Virus record (IMG/VR): IMGVR_UViG_3300020119_000151
Coordinates: 1-53,856 of that record
Source of the DNA: a virus
Taxonomy: Duplodnaviria; Caudoviricetes
Length of the DNA stretch: 53,856 nucleotides
Reading direction: 5' to 3' (one strand)
The notes beneath the pieces are model-generated. The model worked only from the letters and a program-made list of their open reading frames with translations. It was not told the origin of the DNA and did not search any database. Of the stretch, positions 3,221-51,282 are shown in pieces (the stretch's first letter is position 1; each line of letters starts with the position of its first letter). The translations under genes were made by a program, and so were the position numbers.

Positions 3221-4144
3221 ATGGACGAAGCAACGCAATATCTGAACGAGTGGCAGCAAGCGCAGGACCGTTATCGGGCCGGCGTCAATGCCGGTTACTC
3301 GGACGCGGACGCGCAACAGTTGTACCTCGCGCCCGTGCAAGCGAAATGGGACGTTCTGAAGTCGGTTCCGCCGGCATTGAAAACAAAAGCCGCGACTGAT
3401 CTGGATACGGCACACATCAACTTTTTGAAGGGCGTTCAGGCGGGCTATCAACCCGGGCAGGCCGCAGACCTCTATTTGAAACCCGCCCTGGCCGAATGGC
3501 AGGGCGCGGCCAACCTGCCCCAGCGCCAGCTTCCCAAGACTTTGGAACAAAGAACCGAGTGGTACGCTCAAAATCCGGCGATGCAACAGGAGGAATCCGA
3601 GGCCCAGCAGCAAATCGCGGAGGGCGTTCCGATCAAGGATGCCATCGAGGGACACCCGATGCTTTTGAAAGCGCCTGGCTTTTCCCAAGTGTGGCGTCCC
3701 ATGTATGAATCCGCCGTTCGCCGCGGTGAAACCGCACAGGCGAAAACGGAACAGGAAAACAGCCCTGAAGGACTGGCGCGGCAGATGTTTCAAATCGCCG
3801 CCGGACGCAAGAATTTCGCCGCTGATTCGCCGGCACAGGCGTTTTTCACCCAGCGCCTTGGTGAGCTTGAAAATCAGGCGACCAATGGGCCGGCGGCAAC
3901 CGCGCCGAACGTCGTTCCCGTGCCGTCGCAGAGATATGCTCCGAAACCGCCAGATGAAGGCCCAACGCCCGAAGAACTGGTTCAGGAGCAACATCCCGAC
4001 TGGACACCCGCACAGGTTAAGCTAGGGGTTTCCGGTAGATTGGGAGGGGCAATCACCCTACCCGAAGTAGGGGAAGTTCGTAAGGGATACCGCTACAATG
4101 GCGGCAACCCTGCCCTTAAATCTAATTGGGAAAAAGTCGAATGA
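3221..4144 (+). CDS. Putative ejection/DNA-transfer protein
   Basis: C-terminal PEVGEVRKGYRYNGGNPALKSNWEKV resembles a motif recalled from podophage internal proteins; ATGA overlap with next gene. Confidence 0.55.
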   Translation: MDEATQYLNEWQQAQDRYRAGVNAGYSDADAQQLYLAPVQAKWDVLKSVPPALKTKAATDLDTAHINFLKGVQAGYQPGQAADLYLKPALAEWQGAANLPQRQLPKTLEQRTEWYAQNPAMQQEESEAQQQIAEGVPIKDAIEGHPMLLKAPGFSQVWRPMYESAVRRGETAQAKTEQENSPEGLARQMFQIAAGRKNFAADSPAQAFFTQRLGELENQATNGPAATAPNVVPVPSQRYAPKPPDEGPTPEELVQEQHPDWTPAQVKLGVSGRLGGAITLPEVGEVRKGYRYNGGNPALKSNWEKVE

Positions 4145-7100
4145 GCGAACCTTGGGAAGATTTTCAACAAGGCGCGACGGTGGCAGACGCGCCATCTTCG
4201 GATACTCCACCGTGGGAAGATTTCAAGCCCGCCGTCCTCTCAGACCAAGCCAAGGCTGATTTGGTTGAAACGGCCAAGAAGAACGCCCAGCGGCAGGCCG
4301 CGCTGGGTCAGCCGTTTGCCGAGGTTCAGCCCGGCGGAGACGTGCAGCAACGCGCTCCCGACAACAACGCCGAAGCCAACCGTCAGGAATTCGCCAGCCT
4401 TCCGGGCCGGCTATCCAATGCGGCTGAAGAAGTCGGCGCGGAGATCCTGAACTATCCCGCCGAACTGTGGCGGGCTGATACCGGCAAACCCATGCAGTTT
4501 GTCGTCAAAAAGGACGAGAACGGCAAGGACCAGCTTACGACCGAGGAAAAGCCGCTTCCGTTCCAGCCTGGCATTTCCAAGTTTGAAAACTTCCAGATGG
4601 CGAATGAGGACATCGATCCGGTCAATTCGCTCATGGGCAAACTCGTCCGCGGCGCAGGGACGCCGGGGATGCTTTTGACGTTGCCCGCCGGAGAAGCAGA
4701 CCTTGTGAAAGGCTACTTTCTAACGCAAACCGTTCCTGGCGTCGTCGAGGGGGCGCAAGGCGCTTTGGACACCAGCAAAAGCACGAAGGAGCGCGTTGAA
4801 TCCGGCCTGTCGGGTACGGTGAACGGCCTTTTCTCATACCTGTTGGGGTTGAAGGCCGCAAAAACGCCGCCTGAGAAACTGGCGAGCGAGTTGAACGCTA
4901 CCACCCCTTTGCAGCGGGAAACGCCTGAAGGAGCCCAGCCGTCGCCAATCGTTCAAAAGGTGAATCAAAATCCTTGGGACGATTTTAAGCAGCCGGAGAC
5001 GCCGCCCGCGTTTGTAGGTGAGAAGCTTCCCGCCGGAATGGAAATCCAGCCCGTTGAAACGAAACCGGCTGAAAGTGAAACGAAACCGCCTGTTTCTGAA
5101 ACGGGCGAGCCATTAACTTTACAGCAAATTGCTGATAACCAAAAAGAGCAACACAACAAAACCGTCGCCATAATTCAAAAATTGCGCCCCGGCCTTGATG
5201 TCCAATCTGGGGGGCCAATGGGGGGTATTGAAATGTCTCCCAACGGAAAAGTATTGCGGGTTGGGCCGGAACTTCTTCAAAACGTGCAGGAAATGTATCC
5301 CGGAAGGGAGGAGGAAATAATTAGCCGATTGCTTGACGAGGAGGATATACACCGAAATCAATTCGACGAGCTAGGGGAAGGATTTCAGAAAAAACTTAGT
5401 GACTTGTGGAATGATGCGCCACAAGAAATAAAAAATCTGGTCAAAAGTATTTATTCAACAGACCCAGGAATGGAGGCGCATCATTGGGGCGCAGAATTGT
5501 TGCGAATGGGGCAACAGGCAAAAAACGGAGACTTAACCGAAACCGTCCATCCGACGCGCGGAGATACCGCAGCTAATGGGATTTCCAAGTTAAAAGATTG
5601 GGCGGAAAATCAAACGGGAGACATTGGAAAAGTATTGGGCAATAAGTCCCCAATCGAATCGCTGGGTGAAGGCATCGACTTTGCCACCATCCAAAAGCCG
5701 CATTTGGTCGGCGTCGAGGCAGGACTGAAGCTCACCCCTGAAGATGTTCCAGCGCTCCAAGCCTTGCAGAAGCAATCAGTCGGTGAAATGACCGCCGCCG
5801 CGCAGACCGGCGACAACGCGGCCTTTCAAACCCTGATGGGTAAAAACTCGTTTATCGGCGGCGCAATCGAGGGCGCAAGGCGTAAGGGTCCGAATTACGA
5901 TGTTTATCAATCCCTGAAATCTTCCCCGCCACCGGAATCACCAATTCCAGCGCCGGCAGTTCCGACAGCCGAACCAGCGGCGCAAACTCCCGTTCCGGCG
6001 GCGGGTGAAGTTCCGTCTGGATTCAAAGCTCCGCCCATGCCGGAAACATTCAATTCGGCAGAAGATGTTTTGAAGTATCGGCAGGCATATAAAGACGCCG
6101 AAATCGAGTTTTACAAGTCGCTTGGATTGACTGATGCCGAAGCAAACAAGTTTTTCCGCGCTGGAGACAGCCGAAGCAGCTTGGATGTGTCTAAAATTGA
6201 AGAAAAACTGACGCCTGAAAATCAGGCGCGACTGGATAGTTTTTCGCGTGGCGACGGTGGAGCGGTTTACCAATGGGACAGGCAATACAATCCCGAAGAA
6301 TTGGTTGACGAAACCAGCAAGTCAGATCTTGCCAGAAGCCTTGTCCAAAACATAGCCCGCGAATCTGCCCCGGCTGATTTTGGGGATAAGCTGCTTCATG
6401 GCGTCATCGCCTTACGAAACCTGAAAGCAAACGGGGGAACTTGGAGCGATGTTGCACGTGAGTTGGATTCATTCACTACACGTAATTCAGGTTCTCAAGG
6501 TGACAAGGCTGAATACTTTAAAAACCTTGGATTACAGTTAAGAGAATTTGCCGCCCGTCAGGGCATTGAATTGCCACAGGGGGATATGGGCGGAAAAATA
6601 CCCGATGTCCTGACGCACGGCGACGAGGTTCATGCCACCATGCCGGACGGCACGGAAGTCCAAGGCCACGTCATCGGCGCGGACAAAGAGGGCAACTCCG
6701 TCATCATCCAAAAGACCGGCGAAACGGTCACATTGCCAGAAAAACTAACGGAGGAAAAATCCCATGCCAATCCAAAGTCAAAAACAGTGGAAGTTCTTCG
6801 CAATCCACCACCCGGACCTGTTGAAGAAGTGGCAGGCGGAAAGCCCAGTGAGATTCAGCAGCCTGCCCCAGCACGTACCGCCGAAAGTGCGGGATTACCG
6901 ACCCAAAAAACTGCCGGTGTTCCTCAAGCCGGTTCCGGCGACGTAGCGCCAGAAGTTGAGTTTGTTGATTCGACAGGTTTGACTTCAATGCAGAAGGGCA
7001 AGCTAAAGAAAACCCTGTCCACCACGGTTTCAAAGCGAAACAGCCAAAAGACCTACACCGGCAGCAGGGCTAAAGTTGTCTCTGAAATGGTGAACGATGG

Positions 7101-10100
7101 GTACGAGCCAAAAACCGAACAAGTCAACGCCGTCCCAGATTTGAGCCGGAGACAATTTAATAACATGGACGGTCGGCAGCAGGAGGCGTTTGCAAAGCGT
7201 CAAGCCGAGGCTGGGAAGAAAACTGAATATCGGCTTGAGCATCCAAGCGGATCATTTTTTGATGTCACCAAGGCGGAACACGATTACGCAAAATGGCTAT
7301 CCGAAAGGAATCAAAAACCCGTCGAAACCCCGGTTCAGGCGACGGCGAAGGTTGCGGAGCATATTGCTGAAGTGAAGCAGGCCGAAGGCGCACGTCCCGC
7401 GAAGGAAATCAAAAACGAGTTGGTTGACCATCTGGAAAAGGCGGTTGAGGACGCCAAAGATGAGGATGAATACCTGAAATTGGAAACGGTCAAAGTTCAA
7501 ACCGGAACCCGAGCCAACGCTGCTTTGATGATGGAAGACAAGCCGCTTTCCGAAGTCAAAAACTTAACTAACGCCAATGGTGTTAGGTTTTTCAGCCAGC
7601 ACATTCAACGCGCTTTGGAAAAACATGCTCCGAAAATCGAAATAAACATTCCCGGCGATGGAGACTTCAAGATTTTCAACACCAAGCAGGCGTTGACCAG
7701 TGTTTTGGAACGTGCCAAGAAGATTCAGACAAGTTCAACTGAACCTGTTGCAATAAGCCGTTCTGGAACCTCCAAAGCAGACCGCGAATGGATTCAAAAA
7801 CAGCTTGAAAAACAGCCAGTCGAACCGCCCCCCGCGCAGCCCGCTGAAAAACTGGTCGGCATGGGCGCGGCCATCCCTGAAGAATTCAAGCAGGGCCAGC
7901 AATCGCCGACGAGTATCAAGAACGCCACCGTCGAAAACGAACGGGCCGCACGGGGATTGCCGCCGGCCATCCAACCCGCCAAGCGCGGATTTGGCCGCGT
8001 GTGGGATGAAGCCATGGCCGCGATTGACCAAGACCCGGCAATTCAAGACCGGCTGATTGACGAACTCCGCGCCAAACCCCGCGCATTGACTGATTTTGAA
8101 GATGCGTTGCTGCTCCATCGCCAGATCGAACTGCAAAACCAGTACGGCAAATTGACGCAGGAAATGGCCCAAGCGTTCGACGACTCCAAGGAGTTTCCTA
8201 ACCGGCTGGCTGACGTGGAGGAATTGAAGCCGCGCATTGCCAACGTCAAAGACCAGCTTTTCGACCTGTACGAAATCAACAAGCATGTCGGCACGGAAAC
8301 CGGACGCGGCCTGAACGCCCGCAAGATGCTGGCGTATGAGGATTATACCTTGGCGAAGATGGAACTGGACGCCCGCGCAGCCAATGGTGGACGACCGTTG
8401 ACTGAGGAAGAATCCGCGCAAGTAAAAGCGCTGCACGACAAGATTGAAAAACTTCGCAAGGAATATGATACCTACACCGCGCAAGCGCAGGCGCGAATCT
8501 CCGCGTTGGAAGCGGAAAAGGCCCTGAACGAAATCAAACAGGAGCCGCCGGTTGAGCCGCATGTCCGCATCATCGCCGACAAGGTGAAGAAGTATTTTGA
8601 TGGCCGCGCCATGGCCGCACAAAAGCGGTTATCGGGCAAAACCTTCTCGTTCGAGGCGGCATTGCCCGACCTGATTGATTTGGGAGTTTCAACCATCCTG
8701 TCCGGCGCGGCTGATTTCACCATCTGGTCATCCAAGATGCTGCAGAAGCTGGACAAGAGCATTGAGCCGTATCTGAAAACGCTTTGGGACAAGTCGCAAA
8801 ATGCGCTGGATGACCATCTTCAAAAAGGGATGGCTCCGCAAAATGTCCCGAAGGTGAAACGCGCCCTGAAAAACGTCCCCGCCGCCACCGCAAAAGAGCA
8901 GATTGTTGCCAAGCTCCGCAAGCGCATCGAGGCCGGAAAAAAGGATGAAATCACCGGATATGTTCTCAAGCTGGCGCGATTGCTGGTGTCCGAAGGCATC
9001 AAAGACCGCGATGTTCTGATTGATACCATCCACGAACACCTGAAGGAAATCGACCCGACTATCACCCGGCGCGAGACGATGGACGCCATTTCAGGCTATG
9101 GCGATTTCAAGCCGCTTTCCAAGGATGCCGTCTCAAAAGAGTTGCGCGACTTGAAAGGGCAAATGCAACAGGTTGCCAAGTTGGAGGACATGCAAGCCGG
9201 ACAGCCGCCGCTGAAAACCGGCATTGAACGGCGCATTCCGTCGAAGGAAGAAAGCCGGCTGATAAAGCTGGTGAACGAGGCGAAGCAGAAATTTCAGATC
9301 CCCATCACCGACCCGAACACGCAGCTTAAATCCGCCTTGGACACGCTCAAGACCCGGATGCAGACGCGCATCGAGGAGCTTCAGCAGAAAATCAAAGATA
9401 ACGACTTTTTGCCGCGTCCGAAGCGTGAACCTCTGAAGCTCGACACCGAAGCCTTACGCATCAAGGCCAATTTTGAGCGAGCCAAATTGGAATTTGAGCG
9501 GGCATTGCAGGATTACCGGCTGAAAAACCGTAAATGGTGGGAAAAGTCGGCGGATACGCTGGTAAAATGGCGGCGCGGCTTCCTGCTTTCGTCACCTGTC
9601 ACCCTGGCTAAGTTGACCAGTGCAGCGATTCAACGGCTGGCAATCACTCCCCTTGAGGAAGCGGTTGGCGCTGGCATCGGCAAGGCAATCCCACAAGTCG
9701 CGGCCAAAGCCCCCCGCGAAGGCGGGTTGAACACTAAAGCTGAAGCCAGAGCGTTGACGAGTGTTTTTAAACAAGGCATGAAGGACGCGGCCGAAACCAT
9801 CAGGACCGGCACAAGCCCGCTGGACGTGCTTTACGGGCAGGGCCGCGAGGGGTATGTCCGCGAAAGCATGAGTTTACCCCGTTCGGTCATCGACTTTTTT
9901 GGCAATCTTCACGCCATGCTGAAGGCTCCGGTGAAGCGGGCAGAGTTTGAACGCGCCTACGAGAAGCGCACGGAGCAAGCCATCCGTGAAGGCATAGACG
10001 TGACTGACCCCATGGTTCAAACCCGCATTGCGGTGGATTCTTACAAAGACGCCAATCGCTCAATTTTCCTGCAAGACAACTATCTTGCCACGAAGGTTAA

Positions 10101-10881
10101 AATGTTCTTCTCGGCGCAAAAGAAAAAAGGTGAGCAAACGATTGCCCCCGGCGCGAAGGCTTGGGAAACGACAGGGAAGGTCTTACTGCCCATCGTGCGC
10201 GTTCCGACGAACATCGTCGCCGAGACGTTCACCTATGCCTTTGGGCTTGGCTCAGGCAGTTTAAGGCTCGCCAATGCGCTCAGGAAGGGTTTTGACACGC
10301 TTCAGCCACAAGAGGCCGACTTAATCATGCGCGAGCTTAAAAAAGGCTCGCTGGGCTTCGCGGCGCTGCTTTACGGCTATTTCAACCCGACCATGTTCGG
10401 CGGATATTACCAACAGGGCCAGAAACGTGATCCCAATGATGCCAAGATCGGCAGCGTCAAGGTTGGTAGTGTCAACATCCCCAGCTTTTTGGTGCATAAC
10501 CCGCTTTTGGAGGTATTCCAGCTTGGGGCAACCGTCCGGCGCGTGGCTGATTCTAAAATCAAAGGCGAAACCCAGGGTTTGCCGGCCGGACTGATGGCTG
10601 GCGCACTCGGTTTGTCTGACGAGGTTCCTTTCGTGCGCGAAATGTTCGGGGAAATCCCGAAAATGTTCAATCCGCGCGAGCGCGGGGCATTTTTCGGAGA
10701 ACTGGCGAAGTCGATTTTCATCCCGCAGTTGCTCCAATGGCTTGCAAATTACACGGACAAAGACCAGAGTGGAAACACCAATCCGCGTTCGCCGCAGACA
10801 CCCTGGCAGCATGTCGAAACCGGAATTCCCGGCCTGCGTAAGAACGTGCCTGAAAAGAAACCAACCCAAATCAGCCAATGA
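4141..10881 (+). CDS. Giant (2,246 aa) internal virion / polyvalent-type protein
   Basis: ATG 4141 overlaps upstream TGA; PWEDF/PWDDF repeats; long helical C-terminal half. Confidence 0.7.
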   Translation: MSEPWEDFQQGATVADAPSSDTPPWEDFKPAVLSDQAKADLVETAKKNAQRQAALGQPFAEVQPGGDVQQRAPDNNAEANRQEFASLPGRLSNAAEEVGAEILNYPAELWRADTGKPMQFVVKKDENGKDQLTTEEKPLPFQPGISKFENFQMANEDIDPVNSLMGKLVRGAGTPGMLLTLPAGEADLVKGYFLTQTVPGVVEGAQGALDTSKSTKERVESGLSGTVNGLFSYLLGLKAAKTPPEKLASELNATTPLQRETPEGAQPSPIVQKVNQNPWDDFKQPETPPAFVGEKLPAGMEIQPVETKPAESETKPPVSETGEPLTLQQIADNQKEQHNKTVAIIQKLRPGLDVQSGGPMGGIEMSPNGKVLRVGPELLQNVQEMYPGREEEIISRLLDEEDIHRNQFDELGEGFQKKLSDLWNDAPQEIKNLVKSIYSTDPGMEAHHWGAELLRMGQQAKNGDLTETVHPTRGDTAANGISKLKDWAENQTGDIGKVLGNKSPIESLGEGIDFATIQKPHLVGVEAGLKLTPEDVPALQALQKQSVGEMTAAAQTGDNAAFQTLMGKNSFIGGAIEGARRKGPNYDVYQSLKSSPPPESPIPAPAVPTAEPAAQTPVPAAGEVPSGFKAPPMPETFNSAEDVLKYRQAYKDAEIEFYKSLGLTDAEANKFFRAGDSRSSLDVSKIEEKLTPENQARLDSFSRGDGGAVYQWDRQYNPEELVDETSKSDLARSLVQNIARESAPADFGDKLLHGVIALRNLKANGGTWSDVARELDSFTTRNSGSQGDKAEYFKNLGLQLREFAARQGIELPQGDMGGKIPDVLTHGDEVHATMPDGTEVQGHVIGADKEGNSVIIQKTGETVTLPEKLTEEKSHANPKSKTVEVLRNPPPGPVEEVAGGKPSEIQQPAPARTAESAGLPTQKTAGVPQAGSGDVAPEVEFVDSTGLTSMQKGKLKKTLSTTVSKRNSQKTYTGSRAKVVSEMVNDGYEPKTEQVNAVPDLSRRQFNNMDGRQQEAFAKRQAEAGKKTEYRLEHPSGSFFDVTKAEHDYAKWLSERNQKPVETPVQATAKVAEHIAEVKQAEGARPAKEIKNELVDHLEKAVEDAKDEDEYLKLETVKVQTGTRANAALMMEDKPLSEVKNLTNANGVRFFSQHIQRALEKHAPKIEINIPGDGDFKIFNTKQALTSVLERAKKIQTSSTEPVAISRSGTSKADREWIQKQLEKQPVEPPPAQPAEKLVGMGAAIPEEFKQGQQSPTSIKNATVENERAARGLPPAIQPAKRGFGRVWDEAMAAIDQDPAIQDRLIDELRAKPRALTDFEDALLLHRQIELQNQYGKLTQEMAQAFDDSKEFPNRLADVEELKPRIANVKDQLFDLYEINKHVGTETGRGLNARKMLAYEDYTLAKMELDARAANGGRPLTEEESAQVKALHDKIEKLRKEYDTYTAQAQARISALEAEKALNEIKQEPPVEPHVRIIADKVKKYFDGRAMAAQKRLSGKTFSFEAALPDLIDLGVSTILSGAADFTIWSSKMLQKLDKSIEPYLKTLWDKSQNALDDHLQKGMAPQNVPKVKRALKNVPAATAKEQIVAKLRKRIEAGKKDEITGYVLKLARLLVSEGIKDRDVLIDTIHEHLKEIDPTITRRETMDAISGYGDFKPLSKDAVSKELRDLKGQMQQVAKLEDMQAGQPPLKTGIERRIPSKEESRLIKLVNEAKQKFQIPITDPNTQLKSALDTLKTRMQTRIEELQQKIKDNDFLPRPKREPLKLDTEALRIKANFERAKLEFERALQDYRLKNRKWWEKSADTLVKWRRGFLLSSPVTLAKLTSAAIQRLAITPLEEAVGAGIGKAIPQVAAKAPREGGLNTKAEARALTSVFKQGMKDAAETIRTGTSPLDVLYGQGREGYVRESMSLPRSVIDFFGNLHAMLKAPVKRAEFERAYEKRTEQAIREGIDVTDPMVQTRIAVDSYKDANRSIFLQDNYLATKVKMFFSAQKKKGEQTIAPGAKAWETTGKVLLPIVRVPTNIVAETFTYAFGLGSGSLRLANALRKGFDTLQPQEADLIMRELKKGSLGFAALLYGYFNPTMFGGYYQQGQKRDPNDAKIGSVKVGSVNIPSFLVHNPLLEVFQLGATVRRVADSKIKGETQGLPAGLMAGALGLSDEVPFVREMFGEIPKMFNPRERGAFFGELAKSIFIPQLLQWLANYTDKDQSGNTNPRSPQTPWQHVETGIPGLRKNVPEKKPTQISQ
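6764..6946 (+). CDS. Candidate nested 60-aa gene in the +1 frame of the giant gene
   Basis: GGAGG at 6750-6754, 9 nt before ATG; MPIQSQKQWKFFAIHHPDLLKKWQAESP. Confidence 0.55.
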   Translation: MPIQSQKQWKFFAIHHPDLLKKWQAESPVRFSSLPQHVPPKVRDYRPKKLPVFLKPVPAT

Positions 10882-11285
10882 TGACGATTCGAACAAATAT
10901 AGGATTCCCGCCCGGCGGATTCATCTACGAAGACCCGCGAGTTCAAACCGCGAAATGGCTCGACGACCATACGAGCGTCGATGACCGAACGGCGGAGGTT
11001 GTAAAGTACCGTTCGGCAAATCCATCCATCTATCCCGAGCCGGAATGGACGCAACCGGACTATGTAAAACAGCAGATCATGGAGTTCAACTGTTTGCGCT
11101 GGGGCAACAATCCGCTGTATTGCGTGGATTCGAATGCGTTCAAGTCTGCTCCTGTTGTCCCCCAGGCGGCGCGGCTGTGTCCTGATTGCAACGTCGAAAT
11201 CACCCCAAAGTTTTGCCCGACCTGTTCAGGCCGGCGCATCATCGCTTACGAATGTCCCCAATGCAAAAAAGAATACCCCAAGTGA
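10878..11285 (+). CDS. Hypothetical protein with C-terminal Zn ribbons
   Basis: CPDC, CPTC, CPQC; coupled to both neighbours. Confidence 0.7.
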   Translation: MMTIRTNIGFPPGGFIYEDPRVQTAKWLDDHTSVDDRTAEVVKYRSANPSIYPEPEWTQPDYVKQQIMEFNCLRWGNNPLYCVDSNAFKSAPVVPQAARLCPDCNVEITPKFCPTCSGRRIIAYECPQCKKEYPK

Positions 11286-11665
11286 ACCATTTGACCGAAA
11301 GAGTAGGGCAATTCGCCGAAGGCGTCCGCATCCTCACGGACTGGCTGGGAAGCGGCGCGGTCACGGTTGACCCGGCGACGGCGCAACGACGGGCCGACAT
11401 CTGCCTGAAATGTCCGATGAACGTGAATGAATCGTTCACGGCGGAGACGATTGCCGCCGCCATACGGAAGCAGGTTGAGATAAAAAACCATCTTCAGTTG
11501 CGCGTGGGCGGCGAAAAGAATTTGAAAATCTGTTCAGGGTGCGGATGCGTTTTGAGATTGAAAATCCATGTGCCATTGGGCAATCTTGGCCTAGACGAAG
11601 AAGAATTGAAAAAGTTCCCTGATTTTTGCTGGATGCAATCGGAATTCAAAAATCTTAAAAAATGA
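11282..11665 (+). CDS. Cys-rich Zn-finger protein
   Basis: GTG overlaps upstream TGA; ICLKCP...CSGCGCVLRLK...CW. Confidence 0.7.
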   Translation: MNHLTERVGQFAEGVRILTDWLGSGAVTVDPATAQRRADICLKCPMNVNESFTAETIAAAIRKQVEIKNHLQLRVGGEKNLKICSGCGCVLRLKIHVPLGNLGLDEEELKKFPDFCWMQSEFKNLKK

Positions 11666-12330
11666 CCGTCAAACTTCCACCAAATGCGCGGCGGTCATCC
11701 AACCGCAAAATTCGTGCATTATATTGGCGGGAATACAGACGCAACCATTCAGGGGCTACGCGGGCCGCATTACGCCGGTCATATCGCAAACATTTGGTAA
11801 ATAGGAAGGCTGGAAAACGGGAGTATTATCGTAAAAACAGGGTTAAAATTCTTAAAAATGGCGAGGTTTATCGCCGCAAAAATCTTCTCAAGATTAAGGC
11901 CAAACAAAAGGCTTATCATGCCACTCGCTACCGGAGGGACGCCGCATACAGGGCGAAACTGATTGCTCAATCAACGCGCTGGGGTTTGGCTAATCCTCAA
12001 AAAAGACGCGATGCTGTAAGGAAATATGCCCGTAGAAACCCGCATGTTTATTTGGCAAAACATCATGCGTATAGGGCTGCTAAAATGAAAGCAACCATTA
12101 ATTCTACTGGCATTTCAGAATACATAAAATCGGTCAAAAATGCGCCAGTCGTATTTTGCTTCTTTTGCGTCCGACCCGTGCCAAATAAAAAGCGCCACAT
12201 TGACCACAAAACTCCGATCAGTCGCGGAGGAAAACACACCCTTGATAACCTTTGCTGTGCCTGTGAGCATTGTAATTGCGTTAAGGGTGATAAAACCGTA
12301 TTTGAATATAGGATGCTGGCTCCAAACTAA
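11662..12330 (+). CDS. HNH endonuclease
   Basis: CFFC..HIDHKTPISRGGKHTLDNLCCACEHCNCVKG; basic N-terminus. Confidence 0.9.
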   Translation: MTVKLPPNARRSSNRKIRALYWREYRRNHSGATRAALRRSYRKHLVNRKAGKREYYRKNRVKILKNGEVYRRKNLLKIKAKQKAYHATRYRRDAAYRAKLIAQSTRWGLANPQKRRDAVRKYARRNPHVYLAKHHAYRAAKMKATINSTGISEYIKSVKNAPVVFCFFCVRPVPNKKRHIDHKTPISRGGKHTLDNLCCACEHCNCVKGDKTVFEYRMLAPN

Positions 12331-12334
12331 AACC

Positions 12335-12925
12335 ATGAATACCACTGAACCCAACCCACCCGCACGCAATTACTTCCTCGACACAGAATTTATCGAGGAT
12401 GGAAAAACCATCGACCTTATCAGCATCGCGCTCGTATGCGATGACGGCAGGGAGCTTTATCTCCAAAACGCGGAATGCAATTTCGCAAACGCCTCAGATT
12501 TCGTTTGGAGAAATGTCTTTCCCAGCCTGAAGGACTTCGATATGCGCGGAACGCGCTCCTGCAATCAGCAGAAAATGACATCATGCAGCGACAAGCTGAC
12601 TGGCAAATGTTACAACACACTGGAATGTCCTTGGAGATTGCGCTTTGAAATCCGCGATGAAGTCAGGGAGTTCTGCAACCCTGAAAAATATGGAAAGCCT
12701 GTGTTTTGGGGTTATTTCGCAGACTATGATTGGGTGGCATTCTGCCAGTTGTTCGGAACAATGATGCACCTGCCTAAAGATTTTCCGATGTTCTGCAATG
12801 ACATCAAGCAACTGTGCAACAGCCGGGGAAATCCGTCACTTCCAGAACAGGGCAAAGGCGAACACAACGCCTTGGCCGACGCCAAATGGAACAAACAGGC
12901 TTATTACTTTCTTCAAACCAAATGA
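12335..12925 (+). CDS. DEDDh 3'-5' exoribonuclease, Rv2179c-like
   Basis: YFLDTEF, LISIALV, WGYFADYDW, HNALADA motifs. Confidence 0.85.
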   Translation: MNTTEPNPPARNYFLDTEFIEDGKTIDLISIALVCDDGRELYLQNAECNFANASDFVWRNVFPSLKDFDMRGTRSCNQQKMTSCSDKLTGKCYNTLECPWRLRFEIRDEVREFCNPEKYGKPVFWGYFADYDWVAFCQLFGTMMHLPKDFPMFCNDIKQLCNSRGNPSLPEQGKGEHNALADAKWNKQAYYFLQTK

Positions 12926-13617
12926 ATACACGCCTACTTGTAGTTATCCCCTTCTCCGCAAATGATGGCGTTCTCGCCGAACACTTGTGCGATTTTATCC
13001 ACCTCGTCAATAAGCGCCAGCAGGAGGGTCATTGCCTCCTGGTCTGTGCCGGCGACGTCCACGATGAAATGAAGGCCAAGGTTGAACTGGCGGCGAAGGT
13101 GGCATTCGAGGGCGTCGAGCTTATCACCGTGCCGAAGATGACTGACCCGAACAAGAATCTTCACATCAACAATATGTTCAAGACCGCCGCCGGCCACGTC
13201 ATCGGGACGTACCGGACGCCGTTCCTGTGGCTTGAGCCCGACTGTGTGCCAGTGAAACACGGATGGCTTGAGGCTGTCGCCGAATCGCATTTCAACCAGG
13301 CGAAGCGTTATTCCGGTCCATGGCAAAAACTGATGACCGCCGAGCCGGTGATATTTCTCAATCGCATCGCCGTCTATCCGCCGGACTGTTTGCGCGAGTT
13401 GACGGCGCCGCTGGGTACGCAGATGGCTTTCAACATCAACGCCGGCCCCATCGTCGCGCCGAAGTCCACCAAGACCGCCGTGATTCAGCAGGTTGCAATT
13501 ACGGACGAAAGCGCGAAGGTATTGCCGACGACATACATCGCCCACTCCGACAAGCAAGGCATCCTGATGGCTGCTTTGCGCGAAAGGTTTGAGTCGGCGG
13601 CGAGCAAGAAAAAGTGA
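12922..13617 (+). CDS. Putative GT-A-fold glycosyltransferase-like protein
   Basis: N-terminal LLVVIPF strand; FLWLEPDCVP (DxD-like); late H-S-D-K. Confidence 0.5.
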   Translation: MNTRLLVVIPFSANDGVLAEHLCDFIHLVNKRQQEGHCLLVCAGDVHDEMKAKVELAAKVAFEGVELITVPKMTDPNKNLHINNMFKTAAGHVIGTYRTPFLWLEPDCVPVKHGWLEAVAESHFNQAKRYSGPWQKLMTAEPVIFLNRIAVYPPDCLRELTAPLGTQMAFNINAGPIVAPKSTKTAVIQQVAITDESAKVLPTTYIAHSDKQGILMAALRERFESAASKKK

Positions 13618-13620
13618 TTT

Positions 13621-16146
13621 ATGGCCGAGAAAGCAGCAACCAAGAGTTTTATCAAATCCGAGTTCGGGACGCCCGCCAAGGTTATCAACGTGGTGAAGCG
13701 TATGCAGGACGTGGAGCGCCTGCGCGCGGAGGACCGGGCTTTGATTGACGCGCTGTTTAACGGCCAGCGCCCTTACTCCGACGAGGAGGTTAAAAAGTTC
13801 AACATCCAGGTCAACGTGAATTGGGGACAGGGCAAGCGCATCATGCGGGATGCGAACACGCAGTTGAACAACGCCCTGATTCACACCGGGACCATGTTCA
13901 CTTGCACGATCAACGAAGGCCCGGTTGAGAAGCGGGACGAATGGGGTCAAATCTTCACCAAAAATCTCCATCGCCCGTTGCAGAAGGGAGTCAGCGGAAA
14001 AAAGAATTTTTTCCTCATCAAGAACCGCAATGCGTCCGTCTGTATGCACGGAATCGGCGCCTTGCTTTGGCCTTCACCTTACGCTGCGCTTCCCCGCTTT
14101 GTCGGGCTCGAAGATTTGCTGATACCAACCGAGACGCTGGTTGATTTTTCGAACATGCGTTATTTCGCGGTGAACCTGAACCTGTCCATCGGCGAACTGA
14201 TCGATTTGGTGATGAAGGACGATTCCGAAGTCATGGGCGAATGGAACAAGACCATGATTGGCGAAGTGCTGGATTCCCAGCAGGGCATCTACAACGAATC
14301 GACCCCCTCGACATGGCGCGACCAACCCGAGGCGATGGAGCAGGTATTTTTCCAGAATCGCGGCTATTACTATTCCGATGCCACGCCCAAGGTGCGTTGT
14401 GTGATGTTCTTCTATCAGGAAATGGACGACCCTAAAAAATGGTATCGTGTCGTCTATCTGAAGGAGAATCCGGGCGACAAGGTGAAGGACATTGACACGA
14501 AATTTCTGTTCGACGGCACCAAAAGACCTTTCGCCGACGAGATCGGGCAGGTTTTGAACGTGCAATACGGCGACGGCAACCTCGTCCCTCCGATGAAATA
14601 CCACAACGTCCGCGGCATGGGCGTTGACCTGTATGCGCCCGTCGAGACAGACAACCGGCTGCGCTGTGAGTTTGTTCAATCGGTCTTTGAACACATGAAG
14701 ATGTATTTCAAGATCAAGGACCCGGCAGACCGTGACCGGCTGAAGGCCCAAATCTTGCAGCAATACGGTTTCATCGTGGACGGGTTGCAGATTGTCCCCC
14801 GGACTGACCGCCATCAAATCGACCCGAACCTGGTTGAAAGCGCCATGAACCAGATGGGCGAAATCATGCAGGACAGTTCATCCTCGTACCTGCCTGGCGA
14901 AACCGGCAGCGAGCGGACGATGACGGCGAAGGAAGCGACCATCCGGGCGAATCAGGCCACGGTCCTGGTGTCGTCCATGCTGGCGTCCATGTACATGCAG
15001 GAGGGTTTCTATTACGAGGAAGAAAAGCGGCGCTTCCTGCTCAAAGATTCCACCGACCCGCTAGTTAAGCGTTTCCGCGCGAGTTGCATCAGGGAGGGCA
15101 TACCTGAAGAATTTCTTGTTCCGGAAAAGTGGGAAATCGTTGTTGAGCGTGTCTTGGGCGGCGGCGATACCACGAAGGCCCAGCAGCAATCTCAATGGTT
15201 GTTGGGCATCAAGCCCATGCTTGGACCGGCCCAGCAAACGATTGCCTTGCGGGAGTCGGTTTCCGCCATGCTGGAAGACCCGGCGAAGGCGCTCATGTAC
15301 GTCCCCTCTGCCCCGTCGCAATCTTCGCCTGGCTCCGAAATGGCCGAAGCGTTATTTGGCACGATGATGCAGGGCGTCCAGGTGGCGCCGCGCAAAGGCA
15401 TCGACTTGCAGGGTTATGTGACCCAGCTTTTGAAGATGATGGCGGAGGTCATCCAGCGCATCACGCAAACCAACAACATGGGGACGATGGAAGAAATCAT
15501 CGGTTTGGGCATCGTGTCGCAAAACGTCGAGGAATACATCCGTGTTCTCCAAGGCGACCCGCAACAGAAGCAGAACGTCAAACAGTACGGGGATGCCTTG
15601 GGCAAGATGCAGAACCTTATCAAAGGCTTTGCCCAGCGGTTGCAGCAATCCAGCCAGATGAACCAGCATCCGAAGGTTCTCGAATCCATCTCTTACAAGG
15701 ATGTCCCCGAGGACGTGAAGCGGCAGATGGAGGCGGCGGCAGGCCTGAAGCCTTCGCAGATGCAGGTGACCGACCCGAAGATGTTGAAGGCGCAACAGCA
15801 GTTGCAGATCACGGACGCGAAGTTTCAACAGAAGTCACGCCACGCGGAAATCGCCTTCCAGATGGAGCAAATCCGGAAGAACACGGAAGCGGCGAGCAAC
15901 CTTTCGAGAACCGAGCAGGTTCACCGGCAACAACTGGCACACGCGGCGGTTGCCAAGCTTGCCGAACTCATGTCCCAAACCGACGAAGGCGGCGGGGAAC
16001 AGAACGGTTCTCCGAACGGGCGCCAGATGGTCACCATGGACGCCAGCAACCCGGCCCATGTTGTCCTGGCGAAGCATTTCATGAAGCAGGCCGGCAACGA
16101 CAAGATGAAGGCGCTTCAACTGGCAAATCAACATGGCTTTCAATAA
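13621..16146 (+). CDS. Portal protein (podovirus/P22-like) with long C-terminal extension
   Basis: 841 aa; ERTMTAKEATIR portal-like motif; Q-rich coiled C-terminus; upstream of scaffold. Confidence 0.75.
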   Translation: MAEKAATKSFIKSEFGTPAKVINVVKRMQDVERLRAEDRALIDALFNGQRPYSDEEVKKFNIQVNVNWGQGKRIMRDANTQLNNALIHTGTMFTCTINEGPVEKRDEWGQIFTKNLHRPLQKGVSGKKNFFLIKNRNASVCMHGIGALLWPSPYAALPRFVGLEDLLIPTETLVDFSNMRYFAVNLNLSIGELIDLVMKDDSEVMGEWNKTMIGEVLDSQQGIYNESTPSTWRDQPEAMEQVFFQNRGYYYSDATPKVRCVMFFYQEMDDPKKWYRVVYLKENPGDKVKDIDTKFLFDGTKRPFADEIGQVLNVQYGDGNLVPPMKYHNVRGMGVDLYAPVETDNRLRCEFVQSVFEHMKMYFKIKDPADRDRLKAQILQQYGFIVDGLQIVPRTDRHQIDPNLVESAMNQMGEIMQDSSSSYLPGETGSERTMTAKEATIRANQATVLVSSMLASMYMQEGFYYEEEKRRFLLKDSTDPLVKRFRASCIREGIPEEFLVPEKWEIVVERVLGGGDTTKAQQQSQWLLGIKPMLGPAQQTIALRESVSAMLEDPAKALMYVPSAPSQSSPGSEMAEALFGTMMQGVQVAPRKGIDLQGYVTQLLKMMAEVIQRITQTNNMGTMEEIIGLGIVSQNVEEYIRVLQGDPQQKQNVKQYGDALGKMQNLIKGFAQRLQQSSQMNQHPKVLESISYKDVPEDVKRQMEAAAGLKPSQMQVTDPKMLKAQQQLQITDAKFQQKSRHAEIAFQMEQIRKNTEAASNLSRTEQVHRQQLAHAAVAKLAELMSQTDEGGGEQNGSPNGRQMVTMDASNPAHVVLAKHFMKQAGNDKMKALQLANQHGFQ

Positions 16147-17083
16147 CCCGACCATCTTCGACGACCCGCGCGTAACTGCCGCCGGGGGAAACATCTTTGA
16201 ACAGATGCAACCCACCCAGGGCGGCAGCAAGTTCGTCATGTGCAAGCCGGAATATCTTTCCACCAAGATACCCAACAACGTGTTCATGGAGGGAAAGGCG
16301 AACGAGCCGGCTGACGTGCCACGGGCGAAAAATCAGTGGGACAGATCGGTTCACATCATGGAGGCGCTGGGGGTGGAAGTCTTCCAGATACCCGCCGTGA
16401 AGGGATGCCAGGACCAGGTTTATGTCGCCAACGTCGGCATAGCCATCGACCCGTTTATTGTGCTGGCGCAGTACAAGGCTGACGGGCGCGCCTGCGAGAT
16501 ACCGCCGGCCAAGGCGTTCTTCGAGGGCATGGGCTATCAGTGCATCCAGCCGCCGGATTTCTTCGAGGGCGAGGCCGACCTGAAGCATTGGAAGGACAAC
16601 ATCTATTTCGGGGGCTGGGGATTATTCTCGTCCAAAAAGGCGTTCGACTGGATTTCGCAGAAAACGGGCGCAATCATCATCCCGGTTCAGGAGATCAATC
16701 CCAAGACGTATCATTTGGACTGTTCGCTTCTCGTCGTCGATGAGGAAAACTTTCTGGTTACGAAATCCGGCCTTTCTCCGGCCAGCATCAAGGAACTTCA
16801 GCGGCGCGGCAAGGTGACGTTTACCCCGGACAAGATTGCGACGACAGGCATCACCAACGGCATCCTGATACCCGAGAAGAAGATTTACCTGTCGGGCGCC
16901 TTCAATCCCGAGCAAAAGGATTATCAGCAGGCGATGGAGTTCCTTTTGGAAACGATGGATGGCTTTGGCTACACGACCATCTTTGTGGATGTGGATTCCT
17001 ACAACCCGAGCGGCGCCGACTTGAGTTGTAGCGTTTTCCACCTTACATTTCCCCCGACTGGAAAACCAATCATCACCCCATGA
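16133..17083 (+). CDS. Amidinotransferase / DDAH-like pentein-superfamily enzyme
   Basis: MCKPEY..NNVFM, DQVYVAN, FEGEAD, YHLDC, terminal GADLSC with catalytic Cys. Confidence 0.85.
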   Translation: MAFNNPTIFDDPRVTAAGGNIFEQMQPTQGGSKFVMCKPEYLSTKIPNNVFMEGKANEPADVPRAKNQWDRSVHIMEALGVEVFQIPAVKGCQDQVYVANVGIAIDPFIVLAQYKADGRACEIPPAKAFFEGMGYQCIQPPDFFEGEADLKHWKDNIYFGGWGLFSSKKAFDWISQKTGAIIIPVQEINPKTYHLDCSLLVVDEENFLVTKSGLSPASIKELQRRGKVTFTPDKIATTGITNGILIPEKKIYLSGAFNPEQKDYQQAMEFLLETMDGFGYTTIFVDVDSYNPSGADLSCSVFHLTFPPTGKPIITP

Positions 17084-50483: not shown

Positions 50484-51281
50484 ATGTCAACGACAAACCC
50501 AAACCCATGCGCGTGTCCTTCGCCGGACGTCGTTGCTGTGCCTGGCGTTCAGGGCGCCCCGGGAGCCCCGGGTTCAAACGGAACGAATGGCGTAAATGCC
50601 TACACGGTCACGACCCAAAATTTCACCATTCCAACGACGGGCAGCACGGGTACGGTATCGGTGGCGAATGTTTCGTGGATGGTTGTCGGCCAGTTCCTTT
50701 TCATCAGTGACGGCACGAACCTGGCTCACTTTCAGATTACGGCGATTCAGGCCTCGCCTCCGGTCATCACGATCAAGGCGCTGGGGAACAACGGCGACAC
50801 GGCGGCGACGAACGTGATAAACAACGGGGCGAGCGTATCGCCGGGCGGCGTACAAGGATCGAACGGTTTCACGGTCCTGGGAACGAACAGCGCGGCAACC
50901 GCCGGCTCCCAAAACGTGACCGCGACCCCGGCACAGGCGCTTTCCGCCACATTGACGCTTGCCGGTTCCGCGAACAAGACCTACCTGCTCATGGCGCGCG
51001 TTCGCCTGGACATGGTTGGGGCGACGTTTGCCGCGATGCGAAACGTGACACTCACCTTGCGCCGGACGAATAACACGGGCGCGAACATTTTAAGCACGTC
51101 CATCGGGACTCCGATTGTTACGACGGTCACCTATGGCATGGGTGAACTCACGATTTTTGCGACCTACACGACGAACGGGGCATCGGACGTTGTTCAGCCT
51201 TTCATCTCGATTGACACGATTCCATCGGCAGGCAATTTGAATGTCGTCGAGGCATCCATCACCGCGCTGGAACTTACTTAA
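50484..51281 (+). CDS. Collagen-repeat fibre/structural protein
   Basis: GVQGAPGAPGSNGTNGVN; Thr-rich beta domains. Confidence 0.7.
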   Translation: MSTTNPNPCACPSPDVVAVPGVQGAPGAPGSNGTNGVNAYTVTTQNFTIPTTGSTGTVSVANVSWMVVGQFLFISDGTNLAHFQITAIQASPPVITIKALGNNGDTAATNVINNGASVSPGGVQGSNGFTVLGTNSAATAGSQNVTATPAQALSATLTLAGSANKTYLLMARVRLDMVGATFAAMRNVTLTLRRTNNTGANILSTSIGTPIVTTVTYGMGELTIFATYTTNGASDVVQPFISIDTIPSAGNLNVVEASITALELT

Positions 51282-51282
51282 T

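What the first reader, a model, noticed from the sequence alone, without database searches (positions are those of the whole stretch)
6750..6946. Shine-Dalgarno-led small gene nested out of frame in the giant gene
Seen: GGAGG-N9-ATG opens a 60-codon +1-frame ORF where the host frame is a low-complexity linker, in a genome that otherwise rarely shows SD motifs. From memory only, MPIQSQKQWKFFAIHHPDLLKKWQAESP..LPQHV resembles a recurring small phage ORF type (MPFKSxxQxxxxxAxxPxxxKxW). Inference: a conserved overprinted gene.
Basis: partly seen in the sequence, partly recalled or inferred. Interest (0 to 1): 0.7.

Follow-up and report, generated by a model that had tools for sequence, protein, structure and literature searches.

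The report
Conserved small gene inside giant gene
A 60-codon gene for a small basic protein lies out of frame inside a giant phage gene, the same arrangement recurs in many unrelated phages, and both reading frames appear to be kept by selection.

Summary
ORF length and SD alone are within chance. Homology makes it real. P0002 belongs to a large, unnamed family of small phage proteins (core MP[IF]xSKxQ...P...W...LP, then a basic tail). In 21 of 21 nested loci, including two GenBank phage records where it is unannotated, the family ORF sits +1 inside giant ORFs of 408 to over 3,800 codons that are otherwise largely dissimilar in sequence. In nested-only comparisons pN/pS is 0.15-0.57 in the small frame and 0.77-1.99 in the giant frame. 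Synonymous resampling leaves the giant frame open in only 0-19% of draws. The nested start lies in unusually unstructured, A-rich mRNA in 12 of 13 loci. So this is a genuine dual-coding segment, and the giant gene reads the small gene as a low-complexity linker. The small gene is probably the older frame. Function is unknown. Context suggests a head-module or virion-associated protein; that is inferred, not shown. No translation data exist.

The parts
6764..6946 (+). Nested small gene, 60 codons plus TAG, +1 relative to the giant gene. Product P0002: conserved 40-residue N-terminal core, then a Lys/Arg/Pro-rich tail.
   Evidence: Family membership. AF2 with family alignment gives pLDDT 85.7 and helices 6-15 and 17-26. 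It is the only family copy in the window.
6750..6754 (+). GGAGG, an SD-like pentamer 9 nt before the ATG. In the giant frame it comes from the codons ACG GAG GAA.
   Evidence: An SD-like core at -16..-5 is present in 6 of the 16 nested loci that completed, so it is not conserved. Gene starts of this phage show no SD enrichment.
6734..6793 (+). Putative translation-initiation region of the nested gene: weakly structured, A-rich mRNA.
   Evidence: dG -5.4 kcal/mol against a gene mean of -13.6 (z 1.83; 98% of windows in the giant gene are more structured). A fraction is 0.45 in -20..-1 against 0.28 for the gene.
6746..6748 (+). TAA stop in the +1 frame, five codons before the nested ATG. It closes that frame to ribosomes arriving from upstream.
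   Evidence: (open frame 65 aa).
4141..10881 (+). Giant host gene (2246 codons from ATG 4141; ORF opens at TTG 4126). Multi-module protein with no Pfam or PHROG domain found.
   Evidence: L001 has a single 1839-aa ORF that matches aa 1-623 and 1059-2246.
6763..6948 (+). Giant-frame reading of the overlap (about aa 875-936): low-complexity, low-hydrophobicity linker.
   Evidence: The giant frame is no better conserved than the unused third frame.
6949..7320 (+). Domain of the giant protein just downstream of the overlap (about aa 937-1061). It recurs in other giant phage proteins.
   Evidence: 42-43% identity to L003 and L005, 30% to L004.

Best explanation
6764-6946 is a real protein-coding gene that shares its DNA with the giant gene. 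Ribosomes start at its own ATG, which lies in an unstructured, A-rich stretch of the giant mRNA. They make a 60-residue basic protein: a two-helix N-terminal hairpin that needs its Met-Pro N-terminus, then a Lys/Arg/Pro-rich tail. The giant gene reads the same bases one position earlier as a disordered inter-domain linker. Amino-acid selection acts on the small frame. The giant frame is selected mainly to stay free of stops, which restricts synonymous codon choice in the small gene. Shown by comparison: family membership, recurrence of the nesting, selection in both frames, and a start-site signature. Inferred: that the protein is made; that the small gene is the older frame, which the giant gene has grown across at least four times; and that it acts in the head or virion module, for example as a small docking or DNA-binding partner packaged with or acting on the giant protein. 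I put about 0.8-0.85 on the real dual-coding gene and about 0.3 on the head/virion-partner function.
For: Family. An exhaustive phmmer search gave 30 hits at E<=1e-3, about 27 of them 43-100-aa proteins aligned from residue 1 at 33-67% identity. hhalign against the free-standing MPFKSKAQ branch gave probability 98.2%, E 2.9e-14.

Recurrence. The ORF is nested in 5 of 7 loci, 10 of 16, 3 of 79 and 1 new of 7. It is also nested in both GenBank records examined: NC_062743.1 inside a 3694-aa 'structural protein', and MW202828.1 inside a 3859-aa CDS. The small ORF is +1 in 21 of 21 nested loci, across GC 31-61%. The window's giant protein shows no blastp similarity at E<=1e-4 to any of the other 13 host proteins tested, and the others share only scattered modules.

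Selection. Mismatch by small-frame codon position 1/2/3 is 0.305/0.220/0.458. Amino-acid identity is 63% in the small frame, 42% in the giant frame and 45% in the third frame. Nested-only pN/pS is 0.48, 0.57, 0.19 and 0.15 in the small frame, against 1.92, 0.77, 1.26 and 1.99 in the giant frame. The chance that the giant frame stays open, given the small protein and local codon usage, is 0.19 for the window, 0.01-0.07 for the other high-GC loci, and 0-0.0004 for the low-GC loci. In L024, L025 and L028 DNA identity is 0.85-0.89 over the nested ORF and 0.11-0.47 in the other 90-nt windows of the MAFFT alignment of the giant genes.

Start site. The -30..+30 window is less structured than 91-99% of host-gene windows in 12 of 13 loci, and the upstream 20 nt are A-enriched in all 13. 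The start codon is ATG in 18 of the 19 distinct nested ORFs and GTG in L007.

Fold. pLDDT is 85.7.

Context. L023 reads TerL, SU10-like portal, a 100-aa ORF, the small gene, a 317-aa ORF, capsid. In L011 the small gene abuts an SU10-like portal gene. In 7 loci it starts 2-5 nt after an ORF of at least 1330 aa.
Against: There is no direct evidence of translation. No sequencing run was listed, and no Ribo-seq or proteomics is available. The nearest relative of the giant gene (L001 contig, 68% complete) has a different middle module and no detectable copy, so the gene is not indispensable to this giant-gene lineage, or it lies in the missing part. The SD is not conserved and is probably irrelevant in this host. 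The low-structure signal is partly shared among loci, because the first 30 nt of the ORF are conserved sequence. The window's own chance of an open giant frame (0.19) is not significant alone. pN/pS in overlapping frames is biased, because each frame's synonymous sites are the other's replacement sites. Function: Pfam, PHROGs, PDB sequence search and Foldseek gave no annotated relative, and the window's portal was not identified. The head/virion role therefore rests on gene neighbourhood in other phages.
Confidence: 0.82

Rival explanations
1. Absorbed relic. A once free-standing small gene was swallowed when neighbouring genes fused into a giant gene. The ORF is still intact but is no longer translated or needed.
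For: Free-standing copies are the majority in the wider family: 50 of 56 unique. Seven loci have the small gene just after the stop of a giant ORF, and in their sister L106 the giant frame reads through. No expression data exist.
Against: Nested-only comparisons show purifying selection in the small frame (pN/pS 0.15-0.57). The nested ORF is the best-conserved part of otherwise diverged giant genes. All 19 distinct nested ORFs seen are intact, with a start codon and the invariant residues. The start region keeps an initiation-like signature.
Confidence: 0.07
2. Frameshift product. The conserved frame is reached by programmed frameshifting. Either +1 from the giant frame adds the hairpin to a truncated N-terminal product, or -1 out of the small frame fuses the hairpin to the C-terminal part of the giant protein.
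For: In other phages the same 40-residue core is the in-frame N-terminus of longer proteins: L030 and L031, 523 and 380 aa; 4 unique; P0020, P0030, P0031 and P0033. A -1 shift from the small frame would land in the giant frame.
Against: The +1 frame is closed by a stop 1-9 codons before the ATG in the window and in six further nested loci (L015, L016, L018, L022, L025, L028). I saw no shared slippery heptamer in the sequences printed; this was a reading by eye, not a formal scan. The start codon and the Met-Pro N-terminus are conserved at the same column in free and nested copies. Tails of close relatives are conserved in the small frame up to about residue 50.
Confidence: 0.05
3. The conserved object is the giant-frame peptide, or a DNA/RNA element such as a recombination or regulatory site, and the +1 ORF is a by-product.
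For: The island is conserved at the DNA level (0.85-0.89). It is sometimes the only segment shared by two giant genes (L024 against L025), as expected of a recombination junction.
Against: The giant frame is no better conserved than the unused third frame (42% against 45%; pN/pS about 1-2). The protein sequence is kept across GC 28-66% with different codons, and in free-standing copies the giant frame is broken there. Variation follows the codon positions of the small frame.
Confidence: 0.03
4. Chance ORF with a chance SD, or the giant ORF is really two genes joined by an assembly or sequencing error.
For: An ORF of this length and a GGAGG-ATG pair are expected by chance. The region lies in a variable module.
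Against: Homology at E down to 1e-9 from residue 1. The architecture recurs in independent assemblies and in two GenBank phage records, one of them a cultured isolate. L001 encodes the N- and C-terminal parts as one ORF. The joint probability of open giant frames is 4e-7 for five loci.
Confidence: 0.02

Closest known systems
Rz/Rz1 spanin gene pair of phage lambda and relatives (recalled knowledge, no call)
   Same: A small gene lies wholly embedded in the +1 frame of a larger phage gene. The arrangement is conserved across phages, and free-standing or partly overlapping architectures occur in relatives.
   Different: Rz1 is an outer-membrane lipoprotein with a signal sequence and lipobox Cys, and it pairs with Rz in lysis. 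P0002 has no Cys and no signal peptide. It is a basic helical hairpin, and its host gene is a 2246-codon multi-module protein in the structural region. No interaction between the two products is shown.
Unnamed family of small phage proteins; the MPFKSKAQ branch weakly matches phrog_1375 (unknown function)
   Same: P0002 shares the invariant M1, P2, S5, P17, L34 and P35, the near-invariant Q8 and W23, the length class and the basic tail. The profile-profile match has probability 98.2%.
   Different: P0002 and the other nested-branch members tested do not hit any PHROG at E<=0.01. Most phrog_1375-like members are free-standing. No function is attached to the family, and database names are 'hypothetical protein' or none.
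Polyvalent proteins of phages (Iyer et al. 2017, PMC5512222)
   Same: The host genes are giant, mosaic, multi-module phage proteins. L006 carries ART-PolyVal (PF18760, E 1.2e-13) and L015 carries AAA_34/ResIII. The Elemovirus host gene is annotated as a structural protein.
   Different: The window's giant protein has no Pfam domain. A language-model lead to LPD38 was not confirmed by HMM, and that search's control was silent. A term search of the paper found no mention of overlapping or out-of-frame ORFs (passages only).
Pfam DUF3008 (PF11450)
   Same: Small size and viral occurrence. One distant ESM-Atlas cluster has DUF3008 on 15% of its members (score 0.82).
   Different: No HMM match: P0002 and 25 family members, and six-frame searches of the window and four carrier contigs. 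Not a member on present evidence.
Classical overprinted genes of small phages (phiX174 B in A, E in D; recalled)
   Same: Two proteins are read from one DNA stretch in different frames, and one of them is compositionally biased.
   Different: Here the structured, widely conserved protein is the short one. The biased, poorly conserved reading belongs to the long gene, and the genome is a 54-kb dsDNA phage under no obvious size pressure.

Membership tests
Small phage protein family MP[IF]xSKxQ..P..W..LP + basic tail (unnamed) | Significant sequence similarity from residue 1 to independent members | tested here: met
   30 hits at E<=1e-3, best small-protein hits at 1.2e-9 to 4.8e-9 and 54-67% identity. 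The profile of A2 finds only the nested ORF in the window, at E 2.4e-28.
Small phage protein family MP[IF]xSKxQ..P..W..LP + basic tail (unnamed) | Invariant or near-invariant residues M1, P2, S5, Q8, P17, W23, L34, P35 | tested here: met
   All are present in P0002.
Small phage protein family MP[IF]xSKxQ..P..W..LP + basic tail (unnamed) | Two-helix N-terminal hairpin followed by an extended basic tail | tested here: met
   AF2: pLDDT 85.7, helices 6-15 and 17-26. The top BFVD matches are uncharacterised 43-44-aa phage proteins at 32-39% identity, though E is only 0.14-0.46.
phrog_1375 | HMM match | tested here: not met
   P0002 has no PHROG at E<=1. 2 of 25 A2 members hit at best E 0.0034. 5 of 5 MPFKSKAQ-branch members hit at 2e-7 to 1e-4, and 0 of 5 others.
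Embedded out-of-frame gene pair (Rz/Rz1-type architecture) | Small ORF wholly inside a larger same-strand gene in the +1 frame, conserved in other phages | tested here: met
   21 of 21 nested loci are +1.
Embedded out-of-frame gene pair (Rz/Rz1-type architecture) | Both frames maintained by selection | tested here: met
   Small frame pN/pS is 0.15-0.57. The chance that the giant frame stays open is 0-0.19 per locus.
Embedded out-of-frame gene pair (Rz/Rz1-type architecture) | Both products made | not testable with these tools
   No RNA or DNA run was listed. No proteomics is at hand.
Spanin Rz1 proper | Signal peptide with lipobox Cys; host gene is Rz | tested here: not met
   P0002 has no Cys and no hydrophobic N-terminus. 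The host gene is a 2246-codon protein.
Pfam DUF3008 | HMM match at or above the 24-bit cut-off | tested here: not met
Polyvalent proteins (host gene) | Giant protein carrying recognised polyvalent-protein domains | tested here: inconclusive
   Window giant protein: no Pfam domain and no PF18857 match, with a silent control. Host genes in L006 and L015 do carry such domains.
Programmed frameshift site | Conserved slippery sequence, with the target frame open across the shift site | tested here: not met
   A +1-frame stop lies 5 codons before the ATG in the window and 1-9 codons before it in six other loci. No shared slippery motif was seen by eye; no formal scan was run.

The most novel reading that the evidence does not exclude
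The 40-residue hairpin is a portable module that needs a free N-terminus and docks cargo to the capsid interior, the portal or the giant internal protein. Phages keep its gene inside giant polyvalent/virion genes because the two products work together. The strongly conserved island would then double as a homology patch at which phages recombine and shuffle the N- and C-terminal halves of these giant genes. That would explain why the same small gene is embedded, always +1, in giant genes that share little else, and why nesting was gained or lost at least four times.
Probability: 0.2. Interest if true: 0.85.

Novelty: new variant of a known kind. Interest (0 to 1): 0.72.

Why it matters
Out-of-frame embedded genes in tailed phages are known mainly from the spanin pair. 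Here a different, widespread small-protein family is embedded in giant virion/polyvalent genes across phages from 31 to 61% GC. It is not annotated in the two GenBank records examined (Flavobacterium phage Elemovirus, Podoviridae sp. ctfjg026), and standard gene callers generally do not report fully nested same-strand genes (recalled). The case gives a clean, testable example of dual coding in which the short frame carries the amino-acid constraint and the long frame survives as a linker. It flags a missing gene in many phage annotations. It also links an uncharacterised small protein to the poorly understood giant proteins of phage particles. A cultured carrier exists, so start-site profiling, virion proteomics and frame-specific silent knockouts are feasible. 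My searches of the paper library found no description of it. Subscription journals and supplements were not searchable.

Tried and rejected
Pfam and PHROGs on P0002 and the giant protein gave nothing significant, and the same holds for the 25 family members. tblastn of P0002 against GenBank phages gave only E=2 chance hits in mycobacteriophage PRPP-transferase genes. Megablast of the giant gene gave none. The word-indexed protein search with P0002 found none, whereas the exhaustive search did. A genome-contig scan with A3 found none. tblastn of the L010 and L068 small proteins against phages gave no match. Foldseek against PDB gave 0 hits, and the PDB sequence profile gave only E of about 1. 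phmmer of the giant protein against PDB gave nothing.

Portal search of the window with PF23899 found none, and blastp of the 872-aa end ORF against the L011 portal found nothing. PF18857 in the window: none, and the control was silent.

Complex prediction of the L011 small protein with its neighbouring portal gave 'no answer' and is not used as evidence either way. The look-up of sequencing runs listed no run.

L012 was set aside. Its match is internal, 45% identity over residues 12-53, inside a 337-aa ORF.

Of the 79 GenBank records hit, only H16 was opened (H13, is the same record as its H18). The Streptomyces (7), Prochlorococcus (1) and other records were not inspected and may be chance matches at E<=1. 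One search analysed 79 of the 80 kept loci (L023 had been counted earlier), out of 233 relatives reported. The tree used 55 rows, namely 16 nested, 34 of 52 free loci picked without a rule, and 5 fusions. It has 42 columns and many unresolved forks. One search mixed six nested loci with the free L011; one search repeats the test on nested loci only.

A chance ORF, a giant-frame or nucleic-acid element, and frameshifting were considered and rated low; see the rival explanations.

Supplements of papers were not consulted.
Full report
OBSERVATION. The sequence is as described. GGAGG lies at 6750-6754, nine bases follow, the ATG is at 6764, and 60 codons run to TAG at 6944-6946. The giant ORF runs 4126-10881. 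Its likely start is the ATG at 4141, where the homologue in L001 begins. The small ORF is +1 relative to it. The giant frame reads the overlap as a Pro/Gly/Ala/Glu/Gln-rich stretch with 15% hydrophobic residues. Taken alone, none of this exceeds chance. Codon-shuffled giant genes contain on average 4.0 same-strand alternative-frame ATG ORFs of 60 codons or more, and the real gene has only this one. GGAGG-N5-10-ATG occurs six times on the + strand. Gene starts in this phage are not enriched for SD cores: 7 of 63 crude gene calls, against 9.8% of random windows. The SD is therefore weak evidence.

A REAL FAMILY. Pfam, PHROGs, GenBank-phage tblastn and the word-indexed protein search gave nothing. 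An exhaustive phmmer search of 1.8 billion representatives found 30 proteins at E<=1e-3. About 27 of them are 43-100-residue proteins aligned from their first residue, at 33-67% identity. The alignment shows a 40-residue core: M1, P2, a hydrophobic residue, S5, Q8, A13, P17, W23, P28, L34 and P35, followed by a variable Lys/Arg-rich tail. The closest relatives also share a tail motif with the window protein up to about residue 50. A second, much larger branch (consensus MPFKSKAQxRFMFAKHPKIAKRWAKET..LP) is homologous by hhalign, at probability 98.2% and E 2.9e-14. One IMG/VR scan reported 233 relatives of that branch. Only the MPFKSKAQ branch weakly matches phrog_1375, of unknown function. DUF3008 does not match.

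THE NESTING RECURS. I fetched DNA around family members. With alignment A3, 5 of 7 loci carry the ORF nested in a giant same-strand ORF of 1379 to over 2525 codons. With A4 it was 10 of 16, including loci at 32-36% GC where long alternative-frame ORFs are very unlikely. With A5 it was 3 of 79, or 2 of 56 unique. With A7 there was one new case, L114. Two GenBank records show the same arrangement, and neither annotates the small ORF. In Flavobacterium phage vB_FspP_elemoC_14-1A a 42-codon member lies inside the 3694-aa 'structural protein' gp20. In Podoviridae sp. ctfjg026 a member lies inside a 3859-aa CDS. The small ORF is +1 relative to the host ORF in 21 of 21 nested loci (19 distinct small proteins). 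The host proteins are mosaic. The window's giant protein has no blastp similarity at E<=1e-4 to any of the 13 other host proteins. Several pairs share only the overlap region.

WHICH FRAME IS SELECTED. Across seven loci of the window's clade, pairwise mismatch by small-frame codon position 1/2/3 is 0.305/0.220/0.458. Mean amino-acid identity is 63% in the small frame, 42% in the giant frame and 45% in the unused third frame. In nested-only sets pN/pS is 0.48, 0.57, 0.19 and 0.15 in the small frame. It is 1.92, 0.77, 1.26 and 1.99 in the giant frame, and 1.0-1.2 in the third frame. Amino-acid constraint therefore sits on the small protein, also in the nested state.

The giant frame is constrained in another way. 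I resampled synonymous codons of each small gene with the host gene's codon usage. The giant frame stayed open in 19% of draws for the window, in 1-7% for the other high-GC loci, and in 0-0.04% for the low-GC loci. The product over five independent loci is 4e-7. In the free-standing copy L011 the giant frame is broken by a TAA formed across a Ser-Lys codon pair. In L024, L025 and L028 the giant genes are otherwise almost unalignable at the DNA level (identity 0.11-0.47 in 90-nt windows). The nested ORF stands at 0.85-0.89.

START SITE. The 60 nt centred on the nested start are less structured than 91-99% of windows in the host gene in 12 of 13 loci; L015 is the exception at 55%. The 20 nt upstream are A-enriched in all 13. 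This signal is partly shared, because the first ten codons are conserved. SD-like cores precede the start in some loci (window, L007, L010, L015, L016, L114) but not in others. A stop closes the +1 frame 1-9 codons upstream in the window and in six other nested loci (L015, L016, L018, L022, L025, L028), which argues against entry by frameshifting.

THE HOST GENE. The window's giant protein has no recognised domain. Its N-terminal 623 and C-terminal 1188 residues match a single 1839-aa ORF in L001 at about 76% identity. The middle module that carries the nested gene is replaced there. L001's contig is 68% complete, and no family copy was found in it. The domain just downstream of the overlap recurs in three other giant proteins. 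Other host genes carry ART-PolyVal (L006) or an AAA_34/ResIII helicase (L015), as in polyvalent proteins, and the Elemovirus one is annotated as structural. Filing the window's gene with these is an inference.

FREE AND FUSED FORMS. In L023 the gene order is large terminase, SU10-like portal, a 100-aa ORF, the small gene, a 317-aa ORF, capsid. In L011 the small gene ends where an SU10-like portal gene starts. Of 52 free loci, 8 have an ORF of at least 700 aa ending at the small gene's start. Seven of those are ORFs of at least 1330 aa with a 2-5 nt gap. Their sister L106 has the giant frame reading through. The core also occurs as the in-frame N-terminus of longer proteins. A tree of 55 cores (42 columns, poorly resolved) needs 8 changes of the nested state, and at least 4 are forced by well-supported branches. 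I infer that the small gene is the older frame and that giant genes have repeatedly extended across it. The opposite order is not excluded.

STRUCTURE AND FUNCTION. AF2 with the family alignment gives pLDDT 85.7, with helices 6-15 and 17-26 and an extended tail. Foldseek finds nothing in PDB, and only uncharacterised 43-44-aa phage proteins in BFVD at weak E. My working model has four parts: a small basic head-module protein; an N-terminal hairpin that must be free; a tail that binds DNA or an acidic partner; and co-inheritance with the giant protein. It rests on neighbourhood and composition only, and I give it about 0.3.

COMPARISON AND NOVELTY. The architecture is that of Rz/Rz1 (recalled), but the family, the host gene and the likely biology differ, and the spanin features are absent. 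A term search of the polyvalent-protein paper (PMC5512222, passages only) shows no mention of overlapping ORFs. Other library searches (listings and abstract starts only) found no description. I rate it a new variant of a known kind.

LIMITS. There is no expression evidence. Selection statistics in overlapping frames are inherently entangled, and the loci were found by similarity to the small protein, so they say nothing about how often giant genes lack it.

Noticed in passing
window, all gene starts: Gene starts show no SD enrichment: 7 of 63 crude calls against 9.8% background. Seven starts are preceded by ATTT. This suggests a host that does not use SD-led initiation; Bacteroidota-like is my guess from recalled knowledge.
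   Followed up: partly
window 4141-5010 (giant protein aa about 9, 29, 283): Three short PWEDF/PWDDF motifs lie in the N-terminal part of the giant protein, and all are conserved in the L001 homologue. Their meaning is unknown.
   Followed up: no
window about 6010-7315 versus L001: The middle module of the giant protein (aa about 624-1058) is swapped for unrelated sequence in the closest relative, while both flanks are about 76% identical. This is cassette-like mosaicism inside one gene.
   Followed up: partly
L029 (NC_062743.1) 5340-16424: The 3694-aa Elemovirus structural protein contains no cysteine at all, whereas the 42-aa ORF nested in it has two.
   Followed up: no
L064, L071, L082, L089, L093, L094, L098 (about 3995-4001) and L106: In seven low-GC contigs the small gene starts 2-5 nt after the stop of an ORF of at least 1330 aa. 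In the sister contig L106 the giant frame continues through it for 1616 codons. This looks like a snapshot of fusion or fission.
   Followed up: partly
L030 3403-4974, L031 772-1914: In 29%-GC metagenome contigs the family core is the in-frame N-terminus of 523- and 380-aa proteins. ATT sits at the aligned start position behind an AGAGGG motif.
   Followed up: no
window 11662-12330 and 12140-12925: An HNH endonuclease ORF and an RNase H ORF, as listed, overlap by about 190 nt in different frames. The true starts were not examined.
   Followed up: no
window 51241-53856 and 2-1147: An 872-codon ORF runs off the 3' end and a 381-codon frame is open at the 5' end of a record with direct terminal repeats. 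They may be one gene across the ends.
   Followed up: no
window 7813-10878: The nearest ESM-Atlas cluster with a Pfam family for the C-terminal half of the giant protein carries LPD38 (PF18857) on 63% of its members, at score 0.93. An HMM search of the window found nothing, but its control was silent too.
   Followed up: partly
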